From assembly GCA_951406725.2 (NCBI GenBank), contig OX597815.1:175460001-175524000 (forward strand): a stretch of DNA of 64,000 nt. The letters run 5' to 3'. This stretch comes from Octopus vulgaris (Eukaryota). Every line of letters begins with the position of its first letter. The stretch's first letter is position 1. Positions 12,050 to 56,235 of this stretch are shown piece by piece. The notes below the pieces were generated by a model, which saw nothing but the letters and a program-made list of their open reading frames with translations, was not told the DNA's origin and made no database searches. The translations under genes and the position numbers were made by a program.

Positions 12050-12505
12050 GAAAAAGTGCCATACCCTAGTGGTTGAGGGAACCTGTGGAAGAGGTAGACC
12101 CAGGAAAACCTGGGACGAGGTGGTGAAGTACAACCTTCAAACATTAGGCCTCACCGAGGCAATGACTAGTGACTGAGACCTTTGGAAATATGCTGTGCGT
12201 GAGAAGACCTGGCAGGACAAGTGAGACCATAATGCATGGCCTTTACCAGGGATGTAGCCGGCCCGCTTATGCATACCTTTCCGGTGGCACGTAAAGAAGC
12301 ACCATTTCGAGTGTGGCCCTCGTGCAGGTGGCACGTAAGAACACCCACTGCAGTCTTGGAGTGGTTGGCGTTAGGAAGGGCATCTGGCTGTGGAAGCTCT
12401 GCCAGATCAGATTGGAGCCTGACACAGCCATCTGGTTCGCCAGTCCTCAGTCAAATCGTCCAACCCATGCTAGCATGGAAAGCGGACGTTAAATGATGAT
12501 GATGA
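12050..12505 (+). mobile_element. RTE LINE 3' fragment with (GAT)n tail
   Basis: Encodes GRGRPRKTWDEVV..DLWKYAVREKT; 3' UTR matches the 49334-49800 family. Confidence 0.9.
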
Positions 12506-12561: not shown

Positions 12562-12958
12562 CTGTGCTTGGGGAGACCTATTGAGTCAAGTATATCAACA
12601 TCAAAAAATCAAATGGAAATTGTAGTTGTGATACCTGTGCCGGTGGCACGTAAAAAGCACCATCCAAACGTTGCCAATGCCAGCGCCGCCTTGAGTGGCT
12701 TCCGTGCCGCTGGCACGTAAAAAGCACCAACCAATCGTGGCCTTTGCCAGCCTTGCCTGGCACCTGTGCCGGTGGAACGTAAAAAGCACCCACTACACTC
12801 ATGGAGTTGTTGGCGTTAGGAAGGGCATCGAGCTGTAGAAACACTGCCAGATCAGACTGGAGCCTGGTGCAGCCTCCTGGCTTCCCAGACCCCGGTCGAA
12901 CCGTCCAACCCATGCTAGCATAGAAAACGGACGTTAAACGATGATGATGATGATGATC
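12562..12958 (+). mobile_element. RTE 3' UTR fragment, three motif units
   Basis: GGTGGCACGTAAAAAGCACC units, CCATGCTAGCAT..GGACGTTAAAC(GAT)n end. Confidence 0.85.
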
Positions 12959-18797: not shown

Positions 18798-20470
18798 TTA
18801 AAGATCACAATCTCTCCGCTCCATGTCGTAGTCCACCATCCAACCAGGAGAGCGCCTTGCTCGTCGGGATCTTCTCAAGCTGGGCTCCTCGTTTTCCCCC
18901 TCTCCAGAATCGTCGTCCGTCGAAGCGACAATCCTGCGAAGGCCCAAGACGTGTCGTGGCGTTCCATCTACGGATACGTTGTTTCTGGAATTGACCGCCG
19001 TCACCGTTCCTCTGCTCCATTGAGACGTACAGCGCGCCTTTGGTGACTTGACCCAGACTTCCTCCCCTATTTTCACGCGAACGGGTCCCTTCTCTTCCTC
19101 GTGATCCTCCGGCGCTTTGCTCGGGTGCCTCCATTCATATTTGAACACAGCTCTCTGCGGCACAGATTCCTCAGCTTGTCCGGATCGGGGAGACAAGTTA
19201 AACCAAAAACTGCTTCAAGCGGCGAAATGTGCCCTCTTTCCGCTATGGCCTTGACTGTCCGATGGTGCCTCTCCACGATCCCGTTACCGCTCGGCCTATA
19301 CGCTGCTCTGAACAAGCGTCGCACATTCCACCGATCAAGCATAACCCTCAATGCTTCCGAACGAAATGCCGCCCCGTTGTCCATCAGTAGTTCTTCCACG
19401 GGACCTCTCTCTAAGAATATCCCGTTCAGGATCAGCGCGATCTCGTCAGCAATGCCCGATCTCAACTCCCTCCAAATGGCCAGCCGGCCCGGCCCGCAGT
19501 CGACCATGGACAGGTACATTCGCTGACGGTAGTGTGTCACATCCACAGCTAGCCTTTTCCAGCTCTGCTCCACGGAAAGGCTTCCCTGTTCATGCCCACA
19601 TGGAGCAGGGTCGATGGACTGACACCTGTCGCAGCTCCCGACCACCTTCCGGATGCTTCTCCTAGTGACGTCAGCATCAATTTTCTTCGCCAGATACAGG
19701 GTCCTGTCCACACCCAGGTGATGCATAGCATGCAGTTTCTTCAGTTCAGAGTCATCCAACCGACACGCCGCAGCTATACCTTTCGGGGCCTCCTCCGGTT
19801 CTTCCAACCACGCTCTTTTCACCCTGGTCAGTACGTCCGCCCTGTTTTTCTCCGAAGGCACGAAAACCACGCTCAGCTTCAGTCCGAATTCGGCGATCAA
19901 TTCACCTAGAACTCCTAGACGGCGCTTCACTAACATCTCCGCAGCACCTTTCGTCCGCACTCTCCTTTTACCGGTGATCACCGATCCTACCCAGCTAAGA
20001 ACAGTGGCCGAATCCGTCCGGATTTCAATCGTGCGCAGCCCCCATTTCAAGGCCAAGTTCACCCCTTTCAGCACCGCGTCTAATTCGGCGACATTGATGT
20101 GGTTGAAATCATCTGCTTTCCGAAGCCAGGCCGCGTCCTCCACCACAGCGCCTTCGATTGCCAACACCACCGCTATCGCTATACTGCTGGCATCACACCA
20201 GACGGTCCCGGATTCCGTCTTGGGCACGTACCAGTTCCCCCTGACCGGGTCTTCCGCTCTCGTCCTCTCTAGGATTTCTTGCATCATCGCCACCGTCCCT
20301 TCTCCCACCTTGTCGCCCCACCTCTCCCCTTCTGCTCGTCTCTTGGTGTAACCACACGCCGTGCGCAGCCATCCAGCGATCGGGTAGTGACCGACCAACT
20401 TCCCACACACCGAGAACAGCTCTCTCCTGCTGACGCTGGAACTCAGCTCTGGGATCTCATTTCCACGAGG
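18798..20470 (-). pseudogene. pol: Truncated pol: RT thumb/connection, RNase H and integrase, with a frameshift near 19205
   Basis: RNase H motifs WCDAS, ELDAV, TDS; integrase H-H-C-C (HAMHHLG..CDRC) and DDE (VDVT, MDNG, NGIVER); C-terminus continues in the 18798-19196 frame after a T-run indel. Confidence 0.9.
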
Positions 20471-20525
20471 GTCTTGAACGACTTCCCCTCGGCCTCCACG
20501 TCAATCAATGGCAGCGTCTCCAATA

Positions 20526-20586
20526 GCGCCTCTACTCGTTTGCGGGGAAAGTTCGAGAGGCAGCAACTTCCCCGCGGTCGTTTCCC
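20526..20586 (-). promoter_or_regulatory. Programmed -1 ribosomal frameshift signal (G GGA AAC plus downstream stem/pseudoknot)
   Basis: Heptamer GGGAAAC in gag phase; stem GCGGGGAAGTT/AACTTTCCCCGC 4 nt downstream; the -1 frame is open into protease-like sequence. Confidence 0.8.
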
Positions 20587-21296
20587 TGGTCGCAATCACG
20601 GGAAATGTGCCCTGTCTGCCTGCATCGATAGCAAACGGGCCCCGGCTGCGTACAGTCCCGCGCCATGTGCGATCCCTGGCATCTAAAACACCGTCCTGAG
20701 AACGGCCGCTCTCGTTGCATGATAAGCTTCTGTACGTCTTTCTCGGGACGTCGTCCGTCTTTACGCGCCCCCGTCACCGCCATCGCTATCGTCTTCCACC
20801 CAGAGTGTCTCGTTAACACGCGGGCCTGATCCACGAGTTCGCTCAGCGCCATCTTTTTAATCCCGGGCAGTCGTTGTAGGTGAATCCCTACATCGTCGGG
20901 GAACCCATTCACAAACGCCAGCCGGGCTGCTCTCTCCAGCCCTTCTCCCGCAAACCCAGCCAGAGTCGCTAACCTTCTAACTTCTGCTGCATAGTCATCC
21001 ACTTGGCCTCCCGTCCACCGGATCGCACCTAGCTTAGCAAAAGCTGTGTATTCGCATTCCGTGTAGGCATCCCGCAAGCGTCGCTCTATGTTCTCCTCGC
21101 TGAGCCGTTCCTCTTCATCCATCTCAAGGTATAGCGTTAAGGCACTCCCTTCTAAATACAGCACCATAAGACTTGCCACATCGCTTATACCTTGCAGTCT
21201 TGCCACCAGCCTGATTTTGCGAATCCAGGCCACTACATCGCCTTCACCATTAAAAGGTCTGAGGGCGTCGCTGGCGATCCTAATTTTTGCAGACAT
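20532..21296 (-). CDS. gag: Gag-like protein with two CCHC zinc knuckles
   Basis: Intact 254-aa ORF 55 bp after the 5' LTR; motifs CFRCQGSHMARDC and CYRCRQTGHISRDC. Confidence 0.9.
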   Translation of the reverse strand: MSAKIRIASDALRPFNGEGDVVAWIRKIRLVARLQGISDVASLMVLYLEGSALTLYLEMDEEERLSEENIERRLRDAYTECEYTAFAKLGAIRWTGGQVDDYAAEVRRLATLAGFAGEGLERAARLAFVNGFPDDVGIHLQRLPGIKKMALSELVDQARVLTRHSGWKTIAMAVTGARKDGRRPEKDVQKLIMQRERPFSGRCFRCQGSHMARDCTQPGPVCYRCRQTGHISRDCDQGNDRGEVAASRTFPANE

Positions 21297-21351
21297 CGTG
21301 GCGACGAATCGTGTTGAAATGTAAATGTTTAAGAACTGCCGAAATAGCTTG

Positions 21352-21627
21352 TGGTGAGTGCGCGATTTGAATATAAAGGCACCTACCTTCTCTTCCTCGT
21401 GATGGAGACCCTTCTGCGGTAACTAATCCTTCGACACAGCCCCGACCCGAGCACTAAAGATAGCAGCTGCTCACCAAAACCCTTAGCGACGTCCTCACAC
21501 GTCTTGTCACCTGGACGACCCACGTTGGAAAAGCCCAATTGACCGCTGCCTGCGCACACCTGACAGCTGCCCCTTCCGGTTGCTCCAGCTTCCGGTCAAC
21601 GCACCCAGCTGCTGACGTCATCCCACA
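21352..21627 (-). repeat. 5' LTR (276 bp)
   Basis: TGTGGGATGACG...CACTCACCA on the minus strand; direct repeat of 18514-18784. Confidence 0.95.
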
Positions 21628-42139: not shown

Positions 42140-42543
42140 ACCTTGGATCGTGGGGCAACCTGGTGTGCTTGAGGAGACCTATTGAGTCAAGTACATCAAC
42201 ATCAAAATGAGAATCAGATAAAAATTGTAGATGTGATACCCGTGCTGGTGGCACATAAAAAGCACCATTCGAACGTGGCCGATGCCAGCGCCGCCTTGAC
42301 TGGTTTCCATGCCAGTGGCATGTAAAAAACACCAACCGATTGTGGCCATTGCCAGCCTCCTCTGGCCCCTGTGCTGGTGGCACGTAAAAAGCAGAGTGGT
42401 TGGCTTTAGGAAAGGCATCCAGCTGTAGAAACACTGCCAGATCAGACTGGAGCCTGGTGCAGTCTCCTGGCTTCCTAGACCCTGGTCAAACCGTCAAACC
42501 CATGCTAGCATGGAAAACGGATGTTAAATGATGATGATGATGA
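42140..42543 (+). mobile_element. RTE 3' UTR fragment
   Basis: Same 3' UTR motifs and (GAT)n tail followed by (TA)n. Confidence 0.85.
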
Positions 42544-45894: not shown

Positions 45895-46310
45895 CAACAG
45901 AATAATAAAGATCTTCAAATAGAAATTGGCAAAATGTGGAACCTCAAGACTAAAGCAATACCTGTTATCATGGGTGCCCTAGGAATGATAGCAAAAGGGG
46001 CTGATTCCTAACTAGCTCATATACCAGGAAACCTGAAAATGGCCAAAATTAAAAAGACAGGGCTCATGGGAATTGCCCATAACCTACATAAAATATTGTT
46101 TATGTAATCTCAAATAAAAAAAAAAGCCTCATAATTTTCTTATGTTTTCTTAAACATTCTCTAGAACAATACTTTGTGCAAAACTAAATATTTGACACCC
46201 TAGGCATAATACCGACTTGAACTTCTAACTTGTTGTCTGTTGAGGTCCCTGGCTGATACTTGGAGTCAACTTGTACAAATACAAAGTAAAAGTCAAACAT
46301 ATAATAATAA
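45895..46310 (+). mobile_element. Second R4/Dong-like 3' fragment
   Basis: Manual translation KDLQIEIGKMWNLKTKAIPVIMGALG; (AAT)n at the 3' end. Confidence 0.7.
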
Positions 46311-47192
46311 TCATCATCATCATCATCATCATTTAGCGTCCGCTTTCCATGCTAGCATGGGTTGGACGGTCCAACTGGGGTCTGTGAAGCCAGAAGGCTG
46401 CATCAGGCCCAGTCTGATCTGGCAGTGTTTCTATGGCTGGATGCCCTTCCTAACGCCAACCACTCCATGAGTGTAGTGGGTGCTTTTTATGTGCCACCTG
46501 CACAGGTGCCAGACGGAGCTGGCAAACGGCCATGGACGGATGGTGCTTTTTACGTGCCACCGGCACGGGGGCCAGGCGAGGCTGGCAATGGCCACGAATG
46601 GATGGTGCTTTTTACGTGCCACCGGCACGAGGCCAGTCGGGGCGGCGCTGGCAATGGCCATGAACGGATGGTGGTGCAGACGAGTCTGGCAGATGGCTAC
46701 GAACGGATGGTGCTTTTTACGTGCCACCAGCACGGGGGCCAGGCGAGGCTGGCAACGGCCACGAACGGATGGTTCTTTTTACGTGCCACTGGCACGAGGC
46801 CAGTCTGGGTGGCGCTGACAACGGCCACAAACGGATGGTGCTTTTTATGTGCCACCGGCCCGAGGCCAGTCGGGGCGGCGCTGGCAACGGCCACATTCGG
46901 ATGGTTCTCTTACGTGCCACCGGCACTGGTAACTCGGCTGCAATTTCCATTGATCAATTTCGATTCTGATTCTCACTTGCCTCAACAGGTCTTCACAAGT
47001 AGAGTTTTGTGTCCCAAGAAGGGAAGGTATGCATAAGTGGGCTGGCTACATCCCATGTAGAAGGCCACGGGTTATGGTCTTGTCCTGCCGGGTCTTCTCG
47101 CGCACAGCATACTTCCAGAGGTCTCTGTCTCTAGCCATTTCCTCAGTGAGACCTAAAGTTCGAAGATTGTGCTTCGCCACTTCATCCCAGGT
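46310..47192 (-). mobile_element. RTE LINE 3' fragment with expanded seven-unit 3' UTR array
   Basis: End of the RT ORF at ~47080-47190, tandem units 46479-46926, (CAT)n on the plus strand. Confidence 0.9.
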
Positions 47193-47224
47193 TTATGATG
47201 ATGATGATGATAATTGCTCTGAGC

Positions 47225-47650
47225 TGACAGCAGCCAAAGACACAGAAACACTAATTGAGAAAAAAAGAAAACAATGCTGGATCATAGATCTAGCATGTCC
47301 AGCTGACAACAAGGTATGCGATAAGGAAGAAAGAAAAGTCAATAGATATGACAGGTTAGCTTGGGAGGTTAAGAAGTTGTGGCTGCTGAAAAAGCTGGTA
47401 GTAGTACCAATAATTGTCGGAGCCCTGGAAACAGTGAGTAAAGACCTTGATAGTACGCGGAACAAATAGGGGCTGCAATAAGGGTGGAGCACTTGTAGAA
47501 AACAGCACTGTTTGGAACCACTTGAATACTCTGGATGGTGCTTGAAAAATAAGGGATGTTACCTGAGTTCATTGGTAGTGAACAGCTGGCACTGTAGTAC
47601 ATCTCCAGTGTTAGAAGCTGTGCAAAGACAATAAATAATAATAATAATAT
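47225..47650 (+). mobile_element. R4/Dong-like non-LTR retrotransposon 3' fragment (restriction-like endonuclease domain)
   Basis: CWIIDLACP..KEERKV.RY..L..EVKKLW..VVPIIVGAL motif; ends in (TAA)n. Confidence 0.8.
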
Positions 47651-49334: not shown

Positions 49335-51746
49335 CATCATCATCATCATCATCATCGTTTAACGTCCGTTCTCCATGCTAGCATGGGTTGGACGGTTCGA
49401 CCGGGGATCTGGGAAGCTTGAAGGCTGCACCAGGCTCCAGTCTTATCTGGCAATGTTTCTACAGCTGGATGCCCTTCCTAATGCCAACCACTCCGTGAGT
49501 GTAGTGGGTGCTTTTTACGTGCCATCTGCACAGGTGCCAGGCGAGGCTGGCAACGGCCACGGTCGGATTGGTGTATTTTACGTGCCACCGGCACAGAAGC
49601 CAGTCGAGGCGGTGCTGGCATCGGCCACGAGTCGGATAGTGCTTTTACGTACCACCTGGCTGGTTCAATTCGATTTCGATTTCGCTTGCCCCAACATGTC
49701 TTCGCAAGCAAAGGGGGTTGGCATGAGGTTCTATATCGACTTCGCTTGCCTCAACAGGTCTTTGTGTCCAAGGGAGGAAAGGCATGCATAAGTGGGGTGG
49801 GCTCACTTGTCCTGCCTGGTCTTCTCACGTACAGCATATTTCCAAAGGTCCCGGTCGCTGGTCATTTCCTCAGTGAGGCCTAAAGTTCGAAGGTCGTGCT
49901 TCACCACCTCGTCCCAGGTTTTCCTGGGTCTACCTCTTCCACGGGTTCCCTCAACTGCTAGGGATTGGCACTTTCTCACACACCTATCTTCATCCATTCT
50001 CGCCACATGACCATACCAGCGCAATCGTCTCTCTTGCACACCACAACTGATGCTTCTTAGGTACAACATTTCTCTCAAGGTACTAATGCTCTGTCGAGTA
50101 AGTACACTGACATTACACATCCATCGGAGCATACTGGCTTCATTCCTCACGAGCTTACGCATGTCTTCAGCAGTCACGGCCCATGTTTCACTGCCATGTA
50201 GCATGGCTGTTTGTACACATGCATCATACAGTCTGCCTTTTACTCTGAGCGAGAGGCCTTTAGTCACCAGCAGAGGTAAGAGCTCCCTAAACTTTGCCCA
50301 GGCTATTCTTATTCTAGCAGTTACACTTTCAGCGCACCCACCCCCACTACTGACTTGGTCACCTAGATAACGGAAGCTATCAACTACTTCTAGTTTTTCC
50401 CCCTGGAAAGTGACGGAAGTTGTTTTCTGCAGATTTTCGGAGCTCAATGCTCCCGAGCATCTGCCACATACAAAAACTATCTTCCCAGTTAGCCTACCTT
50501 TGACATTGCTGCACCTCTTATGTGTCCATAGCTTACACTGGGTACATCTTATAGAGTTTCTACCTACACCTTTTCTACAGATCGAGCAGGGCTATCTTCC
50601 TGAAGACATTTGTGGATTGTCTACCTTTCTACTTATTAGTACTTTGGTTTTAGCTAGGTTGACTCTAAGGCCCCTCGATTCTAAACCCTCCTTCCACACC
50701 TGGAACTTCTCCTCCAGTTCTGATAGTGACTCAGTAATTAGAGCAAGGTCGTCAGCATAGAGGAGCTCCCAGGGGCAACCTGTCTTGAATTCCTCCGTAA
50801 TTGCCTGGAGGACTATGATAAATAGGAGGGGGCTGAGTACTGAACCCTGGTGGACCCCAACCTCTACTTTGAATTCTTCTGTGTACATGTTGCCAACCCT
50901 AACCTTACTTACGGCATCTCTGTACATGGCTTGCACAGCCCTCACCAGCCATTCATCTATCCCTAGTTTCCTCATTGACCACCAGATGAGGGATCGGGGG
51001 ACCCTATCAAAGGCTTTCTCCATGTCAATGAAAGCCAGGTACAGGGGCTTATCTTTGGCTAGGTATTTCTCCTGCAGCTGCCTTACCAGGAATATAGCAT
51101 CAGTGGTGCTTTTCCCTGGCATGAACCCAAACTGCATCTCATCTAAACTAATTCTCTCTCTAATTAGTTGGGCTATGACCCTCTCCGTAACCTTCATTAC
51201 CTGATCCAACAGCTTGATACCTCTGTAATTATTTGTATCTAGGGCATCACCTTTACCTTTGTAGCAGTTGACTAGTATGCTGCTACACCAGTCATTGGGT
51301 ATGACTCCTTCGTGTATCACCTGGTTGACTATACGGGTGACTAGGTTATAGCCGACACTGCCAGATATTTTGAGCATCTCTGCAGTAATTCCTGATGGGC
51401 CTGGGGCTTTCCCTGTCTTCATGCTTCTAATTGCTTTAACTACCAAAGAATTTTTGACTCGGATGGCTGGTCGCTCTGTTGGGTTGACATTCGGCAGACT
51501 CTCTTTATCCCATTCATTTTCTTTATTCAGCAACCTTTCATAGTGGCATCTCTAAACCTTTCTCTTTGCATCCTCATTTAGCGCAAGTGAACCATCATCC
51601 ATGCGAACACACTTCTCTCCTACCACATCACGATTCTCTCTCACACACTGTCTTGCAACACGAAATACCTCAAGTCTTTCATCCTCACGGCTCAGAACAT
51701 TGGCAAATTTTTTCTTATCCGCTTCCCCTCTGGCTAAATAAACCTG

Positions 51747-55426: not shown

Positions 55427-56235
55427 TATCATCATCATTTAACGTCTACTTTCCATGCTGGCATGGGTTGGACAGTTTGACTGGGGACTGGTGAGCCAGA
55501 TGGCTGCACCAGACTCCAATCTGATCTGGCAGAGTTTTTACAACTGGATGCCCTTCCTAACGCCAACTACTCTGAGAGTGCAGTGGGTGCTTTTACGTGC
55601 CACTGGCACGAGGACCAGTCAGGTGGTACTGGCAATGGCCACACTCAAATGGTGTTTTTTAGGTGTCACCTGCAGAGGAACCAGTCCGGTGGCACTGGCA
55701 ACACCCTTGCTTGAATGTTGTTTTTCACGTACCACCGGCACAAGTGCCAGTATATATATATATGATTTATCTACAAGCATTCTTTTGTGAACTCCAAAAC
55801 AACAAAATAACTTTCTGCACAAAGAAAGATGTGACCTGAATTTCACACATTTCTTTACTTCTTTACTTTTACGCTTGGCTGCACCCTAAACAATATCTAA
55901 ACTTTATCTATCAAACCAAAATAAATCTCACCATAACAATGCCAACATTGATTAAAATTAACCCACACTTTTCAAGCTCATACTTTCTTTCTTTTCTCCC
56001 CTATCCCTGATTCCCACACAACCACTTCCTCAGTCTGCTTACACCACACTCAATTACCATTTACATAGCTTCACCTACCCAAAAATATAATTTATCGAAA
56101 ACTATATAAAACTAAATCGGACCCAAGCAAATTGAAGAGGAGCAAATCAAAACTTCGAAGTCACTATTACCTTTTTCCTTGTAAAAATTGATACACACAC
56201 ACACACATATATATATATGTTTCTAACCACTATAG

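What the first reader, a model, noticed from the sequence alone, without database searches (positions are those of the whole stretch)
46479..46926. Expandable array of compact pseudoknot-like RNA units in the RTE LINE 3' UTR
Seen: seven copies of a ~25-nt motif, sense strand (minus) YGTGC-N-GGTG-GCACR-TAAAAAG-CACC, mostly separated by ~37-41-nt related spacers that each contain a GCCAG..CTGGC hairpin. Other copies in the window carry about 1-3 units (9740, 12280-12345, 12637-12790, 42240-42392, 49508-49655, 55586-55741), so copy number is plastic. The motif fits an H-type pseudoknot: stem 1 YGTGC/GCACR, a 1-nt loop, stem 2 GGTG/CACC and an A-rich loop 3. The loop base varies freely (C at 46560, A at 46500 and 12326, T at 42247). 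The outer pair covaries in some units (CGTGC/GCACG versus TGTGC/GCACA), though not all. Inference: a modular structured-RNA cassette for nuclease resistance, RT docking or catalysis that is multiplied during retrotransposition. I know of no description of it as an array, but cannot check this.
Basis: partly seen in the sequence, partly recalled or inferred. Interest (0 to 1): 0.75.

Follow-up and report, generated by a model that had tools for sequence, protein, structure and literature searches.

The report
Variable repeat in a LINE tail
A very common jumping gene in this animal genome carries a chain of short repeats in its tail whose length differs from copy to copy; the chain most likely grows and shrinks by ordinary slippage, and only its last one or two repeats, which are predicted to be able to fold into a small RNA knot, stay intact in the youngest copies.

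Summary
The array is real: seven 25-26-nt cores in the 3' UTR of a 5'-truncated RTE-type LINE; the 25-mer occurs 11,798 times genome-wide. Close relatives carry 5-9 cores in 17 layouts (29 parsed). The outer-pair 'covariation' and the C/T/A loop variants in this copy's family sit on CpG sites; covariation was no better than shuffles (128 of 500). In the youngest families the amplified upstream units mostly cannot form the pseudoknot (28 of 213 intact), whereas the last two can (47 of 48, 44 of 48). Both UTRs duplicate other segments too. For the idea: the core is more conserved between subfamilies than flanking tail (19/26 vs 43/89, p 0.04), its stem cores never vary, and such double complementarity is rare in shuffles. 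Best reading: a VNTR like that of SVA/LAVA, built from a conserved 3'-end element that may fold as an H-type pseudoknot (about 35%). No ribozyme evidence. The scan earlier noted, in another genome, a satellite derived from an RTE 3' UTR repeat (not checked here).

The parts
47079..47194 (-). Last ~38 codons of the LINE ORF (5'-truncated copy); the stop codon present in relatives is missing here
46928..47078 (-). Non-repeated part of the 3' UTR
46903..46927 (-). Core 1 (subfamily-specific first unit; loop one base shorter, stem 2 reduced to three pairs)
46837..46862 (-). Core 2 (stem 1 broken in this copy)
46771..46796 (-). Core 3 (stem 2 broken in this copy)
46709..46734 (-). Core 4 (all nine proposed pairs possible)
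46670..46708 (-). Coreless partial unit: spacer whose core was deleted; shared by relatives on other contigs
46604..46629 (-). Core 5 (all nine proposed pairs possible)
46542..46567 (-). Core 6 (all nine proposed pairs possible)
46479..46504 (-). Core 7, the terminal unit: present in all nine subfamilies compared; candidate cis-element
46462..46478 (-). Linker, more variable between subfamilies
46436..46461 (-). Conserved 26-nt 'anchor' (25 of 26 columns invariant), shared with retroposons of other organisms in metagenome contigs
46331..46435 (-). 3' tail with terminal hairpins
46310..46330 (-). (GAT)7 terminal repeat

Best explanation
This is a variable-number tandem repeat in the 3' UTR of a very abundant RTE-type LINE, likely expanded and contracted by microhomology-driven slippage, in which probably only the last one or two units are kept functional as part of the RNA's 3'-end recognition module. 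Shown: the element, the array, its variation among near-identical copies, recurrence of duplications with different unit boundaries in different subfamilies (25-29-nt bare cores, 62-67-nt units, about 85-100-nt core-plus-anchor units, 160-190-nt higher-order units), decay of upstream units in young families, and CpG decay as the main source of variation among copies. Inferred: slippage at short repeats as the cause (deletions end at shared hexamers); source elements pass each layout on to daughter copies; the 'spacer hairpin' is a diverged second monomer; the terminal core is under constraint (about 65%); it folds as an H-type pseudoknot rather than a plain hairpin (about 35%); its job is to help the LINE protein pick or position its own RNA for target-primed reverse transcription (by analogy, untested).
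For: 29 of 30 closest relatives parsed: 5 cores x14, 6 x9, 7 x5, 9 x1, in 17 layouts; this copy's layout recurs in L055 on another contig. Young family: 1-4 copies of a 160-190-nt unit in 29 of 30 loci parsed. In 48 young copies the six central pairs are possible in 47/48 terminal and 44/48 penultimate units but in 28/213 further units (0/47, 0/43, 0/35 at ranks 3, 5, 7); these units carry a broken stem 1 or lack the 5' arm in the source itself. Tandem duplications also occur in the 5' UTR (L118, L125, L128) and in core-free upstream sequence of an old family. Variation among copies peaks at three CpG sites; in 158 units from 1.06 Mb taken without regard to the motif the outer pair has odds ratio 1.8 (p 0.14), within the 0.27-2.31 of non-pairing controls. 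Covariation score reached by 128 and 149 of 500 shuffles. Four relatives share a 15-nt deletion that removes the 5' arm of the terminal core. Nested folding of the array is no better than shuffles (z -0.41). Four ORF relatives from other organisms (45-48% identity) with a visible 3' end have no anchor in the following sequence, and no such array was seen. Microhomology-driven remodelling of a retroposon VNTR at the DNA level is described for SVA/LAVA (PMC4432496, abstract and passages).
Against: The core has been part of the amplified unit in several subfamilies, and old families repeat the bare 25-29-nt core up to about ten times, which neutral duplication does not predict by itself. In this copy's own subfamily upstream units are about as intact as the terminal one (ranks 1-4: 23, 22, 24, 22 of 28). 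In the larger, motif-selected set (666 units) both CpG-bearing pairs are associated (odds ratios 2.0 and 3.9; best controls 2.5), so a weak pairing signal is not excluded. Whether layouts change in DNA or during reverse transcription is undecided: 3 of 76 within-copy unit pairs share two or more rare changes against 30 of 2784 between copies (p 0.056), and only L062 is a clean case. The constraint on the core rests on nine related majority sequences (p 0.04, columns and families not independent).
Confidence: 0.62

Rival explanations
1. A selected tandem cassette of H-type pseudoknots: each unit folds, and more units give more RNA stability or protein docking, as proposed for tandem pseudoknots in viral UTRs.
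For: Five-plus-four Watson-Crick double complementarity occurs in 0 of 20,000 shuffles of the 26-mer, 45 of 5,000 shuffles of a 62-nt unit and once in the 3,114-nt ORF (boundaries chosen after seeing the motif). Twelve central stem positions and the A-run are invariant in nine subfamilies, and changes fall on helix ends and loop 1; position 11 pairs with position 5 when G and with position 22 when C. Old families repeat the bare core. Young families keep two intact units, and FMDV keeps at least two tandem pseudoknots with a competitive advantage (PMC9203018, abstract).
Against: No covariation above shuffles; paired and loop positions are equally conserved (14/18 vs 5/8, p 0.64); most amplified units of young families cannot fold; rough energy estimates with recalled parameter sets straddle the plain hairpin (-6.9 to -13.7 vs -8.6 kcal/mol); a one-base loop across a four-pair stem is tight (recalled geometry).
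Confidence: 0.15
2. The whole repeat, terminal unit included, is neutral: a self-complementary GC-rich minisatellite carried along next to the really constrained anchor and tail.
For: Copies lacking the terminal 5' arm recur; relatives from other organisms have short 3' UTRs without it; the anchor is more conserved than the core (25/26 vs 19/26); the conservation test is weak (p 0.04).
Against: The core persists at a fixed distance from the anchor in all nine subfamilies, some about 13% diverged from their own majority sequence, while the 17-18-nt linker between them changes; young families keep the last two units intact while upstream ones decay.
Confidence: 0.15
3. The unit is a remodelled remnant of a 5'-end ribozyme module (twister or a similar structure) that became placed in the 3' UTR and was then duplicated.
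For: In 3 of 120 metagenome loci a twister-like sequence sits directly upstream of the same anchor; two match Rfam twister-P1 (E 7.5e-7 and 6.3e-6, below the gathering score). In a full-length ORF relative the anchor lies in the 5' UTR (L420). Twister variants head an RTE family in Schistosoma (PMC8501958, passages and section 18 part 1).
Against: The catalytic loop sequence of twister is absent from the unit; best local similarity is reached by 148 of 3,000 shuffles, the best of 12 comparisons; no Rfam match in the array at E up to 10; 5' ends of short copies do not pile up at one base.
Confidence: 0.08

Closest known systems
VNTR domain of SVA/LAVA retroposons (PMC4432496; abstract and passages seen)
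   Same: GC-rich 30-60-nt repeat units inside a non-LTR retroposon; subfamily-specific unit arrays; conserved units at the ends; gains and losses at microhomologies.
   Different: Here the host is an autonomous RTE-type LINE, the array is in the 3' UTR next to the terminal module, and the monomer may be a folded cis-element; DNA-level remodelling is shown for SVA/LAVA but only suggested here (one case).
3' UTR pseudoknot-hinge-stem of avian and turtle R2 (PMC12180492; passages seen)
   Same: A pseudoknot near the 3' end of a non-LTR retrotransposon RNA, followed by a linker and terminal stems; a model for what the terminal core might do.
   Different: R2's pseudoknot is single, solved by cryo-EM and rescued by compensatory mutation; here the fold is untested, the protein class differs, and no homology is claimed.
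Tandem pseudoknots of FMDV 5' UTR (PMC9203018; abstract seen) and of the tobamovirus upstream pseudoknot domain (recalled)
   Same: Variable numbers of short H-type pseudoknot units in a UTR, with at least two retained.
   Different: Viral units are supported by probing and mutants; in this LINE most upstream units of young families cannot fold.
3'-terminal hairpin shared by plant RTE LINEs and Au-like SINEs (PMC6007223; passages seen)
   Same: A structured, conserved RTE 3' end thought to be needed for retroposition.
   Different: That hairpin shows compensatory changes and is not repeated.
Twister (T-variant) ribozymes of the RTE family Perere-3 (PMC8501958; passages and one section part seen)
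   Same: RTE-associated compact RNA; twister-like sequences occupy the slot upstream of the same anchor in three metagenome loci.
   Different: Those lie at the 5' end and define it by cleavage; this unit lacks the catalytic loop and lies in the 3' UTR.
RTE-2_OV of octopus (PMC9115989; passages seen)
   Same: Single-ORF RTE with endonuclease and reverse transcriptase in a cephalopod.
   Different: Described with a 1109-aa ORF and a mostly microsatellite 3' UTR; the family here has about 1040 aa, a PHD-like finger after the RT domain and a minisatellite 3' UTR. Sequences were not compared.

Membership tests
RTE-clade LINE | Single ORF with APE endonuclease and reverse transcriptase, no ORF1 | tested here: met
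   Full-length copies have one 1034-1043-aa frame; RVT_1 in the window copy; relatives carry Exo_endo_phos and RVT_1.
RTE-clade LINE | Short tandem-repeat tail instead of poly(A); frequent 5' truncation | tested here: met
   (GAT)n tails in 20 of 20 long copies; graded 5' truncation.
RTE-clade LINE | RT groups with named RTE references in a tree | not tested
   No named reference set was at hand; assignment rests on architecture (criteria recalled).
Retroposon-internal VNTR (SVA/LAVA type) | Unit number varies among closely related copies and between subfamilies | tested here: met
   5-9 cores, 17 layouts in 29 relatives; 1-4 higher-order units in the young family.
Retroposon-internal VNTR (SVA/LAVA type) | Microhomology at breakpoints | tested here: inconclusive
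   Seen by eye for the recurrent 15-nt deletion and the half units; not counted systematically.
Retroposon-internal VNTR (SVA/LAVA type) | Remodelling at the DNA level (orthologous copies differ) | tested here: inconclusive
   One clean case, L062; reads and contigs of other runs did not span the locus.
H-type RNA pseudoknot | Two interlocking stems with feasible loop lengths and an A-rich loop 3 | tested here: met
   Sequence-compatible in 4 of 7 cores of this copy; rare in shuffles. Loop 1 of one base is tight; a 4+4 register with a two-base loop is also possible.
H-type RNA pseudoknot | Compensatory covariation in both stems | tested here: not met
   power is low because the stem cores do not vary between subfamilies.
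H-type RNA pseudoknot | Probing or mutational rescue | not testable with these tools
   Needs bench work.
Twister ribozyme (RF03160) | Conserved catalytic loop and both pseudoknot pairings; covariance-model match | tested here: not met
   No match at E up to 10; one canonical core in the whole genome, in another element.
Self-cleaving ribozyme of any class | Genomic copies begin at a fixed cleavage site | tested here: not met
   5' boundaries of 90 tails are spread; those of old families were limited by the reference library.

The most novel reading that the evidence does not exclude
The 26-nt core is a real compact pseudoknot that the LINE protein binds or that blocks nucleases; the lineage keeps at least two working copies at the RNA 3' end and has repeatedly multiplied them, making this a virus-style tandem pseudoknot domain in a LINE, sitting in a slot (upstream of a widely shared anchor) that other animal retroposons fill with a twister ribozyme or another pseudoknot.
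Probability: 0.15. Interest if true: 0.7.

Novelty: new member of a known kind. Interest (0 to 1): 0.3.

Why it matters
As a VNTR it is a well-resolved natural series: more than ten thousand exact cores and at least nine subfamilies in one genome show how a LINE 3' UTR array is born from a 25-29-nt monomer, forms higher-order units and decays, and it can seed larger satellites. It also marks a short, conserved candidate cis-element for RTE template recognition, which is poorly defined and matters for RTE-based gene writing (PMC13708176, passages). If the pseudoknot and a dose effect were shown, it would be a new design for LINE RNAs. As it stands the structure is compatible but unproven.

Tried and rejected
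Rfam: no gathering-level match in the window and only chance-level matches at 46000-47500. Core motif in viral contigs: 0; ORF relatives in viral contigs: 0 of 133 candidate stretches. Compensation between positions 11 and 22: none of the A-at-11 units among the first 100 of 2,644 listed has T at 22; first 100 of 2,074 with a changed position 22 show no pairing trend. The A-U state at pair 7-26 in one old family was rejected as compensation because position 26 is on a CpG. Mutual information: best proposed pair ranks 15 of 325, stem-2 pairs 170-268. Twister ancestry: not significant. Cleavage-defined 5' ends: not seen. Locus-level length polymorphism: raw reads too sparse (2 and 4 laid) and contigs too short. 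An octopus-like core was matched at up to four edits in 1 of 120 metagenome loci (L167) and not examined. Literature: ten searches, including the motif strings themselves (0 papers), found no description of this array; Repbase and Dfam, where a consensus may show it, and subscription papers were not searchable; no supplements were read.

Full report
Observation. Tandem Repeats Finder reports periods of 62-66, 167 and 233. One spacer is double and holds a coreless unit. Four of the seven cores allow all nine proposed pairs.

The host element. Upstream lies the end of a LINE ORF and downstream a conserved tail with (GAT)7. The exact 25-mer occurs 11,798 times in the genome, the reversed control never. 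Twenty long copies carry a single frame of 999-1162 codons; the full-length ones give about 1040 aa with endonuclease, RT and a PHD-like finger. I file it as RTE by architecture; no tree with named references was made. The genome is probably an octopus (inferred; not determined here).

Copy number. Of the 30 best DNA relatives 29 were parsed: 5 cores in 14, 6 in 9, 7 in 5, 9 in 1, in 17 layouts; two of the 29 are neighbours on one contig. This copy's layout recurs in L055 on another contig, so it was at least partly inherited from a source element. The youngest families repeat a different, 160-190-nt unit one to four times (29 of 30 loci parsed). Old families repeat bare 25-29-nt cores, up to about ten, or a core-plus-anchor unit of about 85-100 nt. 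An old two-monomer family suggests, by eye, that the hairpin 'spacer' is a diverged second monomer (inference). The 5' UTR and core-free upstream sequence duplicate as well, so duplication is not specific to the core.

Covariation. Across 1,046 units from 346 elements, variation peaks at three CpG sites, which include both ends of the outer pair and the loop base. In 158 units from 1.06 Mb sampled without regard to the motif, C1T and G15A associate with odds ratio 1.8 (p 0.14), G2A and C14T with 1.8 (p 0.22), and non-pairing controls range 0.27-2.31. In 666 units, many from motif-selected loci (young loci L081-L130, gapped units and stem-broken units left out), the two pairs reach 2.0 and 3.9 against best controls of 2.5; copy age confounds all of these, and changes after insertion are not selected on RNA. 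Mutual information ranks no proposed pair above 15 of 325. On 66 of 79 sampled terminal units (13 dropped: 2 lacking the 5' arm, 11 with a shorter A-run) the covariation score is reached by 128 and 149 of 500 shuffles for the two registers. Genome-wide pattern lists show no compensation between positions 11 and 22.

What speaks for a constrained, possibly knotted core. In nine subfamily majority sequences (one further small mixed cluster dropped) 19 of 26 core columns are invariant against 43 of 89 in linker and mid tail (p 0.04); the twelve central stem positions never change, and changes fall on helix ends, loop 1 and A-run length. Paired and loop columns do not differ (14/18 vs 5/8), so this shows sequence constraint, not structure. 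Position 11 can pair in stem 1 when G and in stem 2 when C. The double complementarity is rare in shuffles (0 of 20,000 26-mers; 45 of 5,000 62-mers). Nested folding gives the six-pair hairpin at -8.6 kcal/mol; rough pseudoknot estimates with recalled parameters lie on both sides of it; the whole array folds no better than shuffles.

Which units matter. In 48 young copies the six central pairs are possible in 47 terminal and 44 penultimate units, but in 28 of 213 further units; those are broken in the source elements themselves. In this copy's own, somewhat older subfamily ranks 1-4 are equally intact (22-24 of 28), as expected of recent duplicates but also compatible with selection. Four relatives share a deletion of the terminal 5' arm, which leaves the penultimate unit.

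Mechanism. Most likely the 3' UTR is a slippage-prone VNTR, as described for SVA/LAVA, where remodelling is microhomology-driven and at the DNA level (PMC4432496, abstract and passages). Here L062 duplicated a block after four rare changes had arisen; overall the excess of shared rare changes within copies is marginal (3 of 76 vs 30 of 2784, p 0.056, and one of the three is an alignment artefact). The last one or two cores probably belong to the 3'-end module that the LINE protein recognises; structured, essential 3' ends are proposed for RTE (PMC6007223, passages) and a 3' UTR pseudoknot is proven for avian and turtle R2 (PMC12180492, passages). That step is analogy.

Ribozyme lead. In 3 of them a twister-like sequence lies directly upstream, two with Rfam support below the gathering score; in the ORF relative L420 the anchor is in the 5' UTR, and four other relatives with a visible 3' end have no anchor in the sequence that follows. 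The unit's likeness to twister is not significant (148 of 3,000, best of 12), the catalytic loop is missing, Rfam finds nothing, and 5' ends do not cluster.

Literature. Ten searches found no description of this array. Also seen: PMC13282606 (first third of the text), PMC9115989, PMC6765202, PMC10085705, PMC4758252, PMC13708176 (passages), PMC8501958 (passages and part of one section), PMC9203018 (abstract). Repeat databases and supplements were not seen and may hold the array in a consensus. The tobamovirus comparison is recalled.

Verdict. A real, variable array; a new member of a known kind (retroposon-internal VNTR) whose monomer is a candidate cis-element. The pseudoknot is compatible, unproven, and not supported by covariation; the claim that every multiplied unit is a working module is contradicted in the youngest families. 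Interest 0.3.

Noticed in passing
L154, L205 (60-100 nt upstream of the anchor) and L420:95-150: A second kind of head upstream of the anchor, in the slot that twister-like sequences fill in L197, L234, L249: two interlocking stems whose sequences differ between L420 and L154/L205 while pairing is kept, with a shared CGAAU-like loop (read by eye). No Rfam match. Candidate for an undescribed self-cleaving or nuclease-blocking RNA at RTE 5' ends.
   Followed up: partly
window 46436-46461 and 46419-46422 (minus strand): The anchor itself can form a small hairpin whose GGCA loop matches an invariant TGCC 14 nt downstream in all nine subfamilies; in most metagenome loci the partner lies upstream instead (77 of 118) and only 4 of 118 have it downstream.
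   Followed up: partly
L197, L234, L249: Short (about 330-400 nt) retroposons without ORF that begin with a twister-like sequence and end in a triplet repeat.
   Followed up: partly
L251:1484-1538: The only canonical twister-P1 core found in the genome by exact pattern (E 9.3e-9, below gathering score), at the start of a different short insertion.
   Followed up: partly
L065:1570-1750 (minus strand): A relative with clustered A-to-G changes inside the array, including two A-runs; resembles an edited RNA copied into DNA.
   Followed up: no
window 49803-51551 (minus strand); The LINE ORF carries a PHD-like zinc finger between RT and the C-terminal region; many of the 120 listed relatives share it.
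   Followed up: partly
window 19073-21422 (minus strand): Frames with zinc knuckle, RNase H-like and integrase matches: an LTR retroelement fragment.
   Followed up: no
G000:C2:178612408-178612938: Six linker-plus-anchor matches at 100-nt spacing: a longer tandem run of the old core-plus-anchor unit.
   Followed up: no
L420-L425: Animal-type LINE sequences inside records labelled as bacterial genomes; likely contamination.
   Followed up: no
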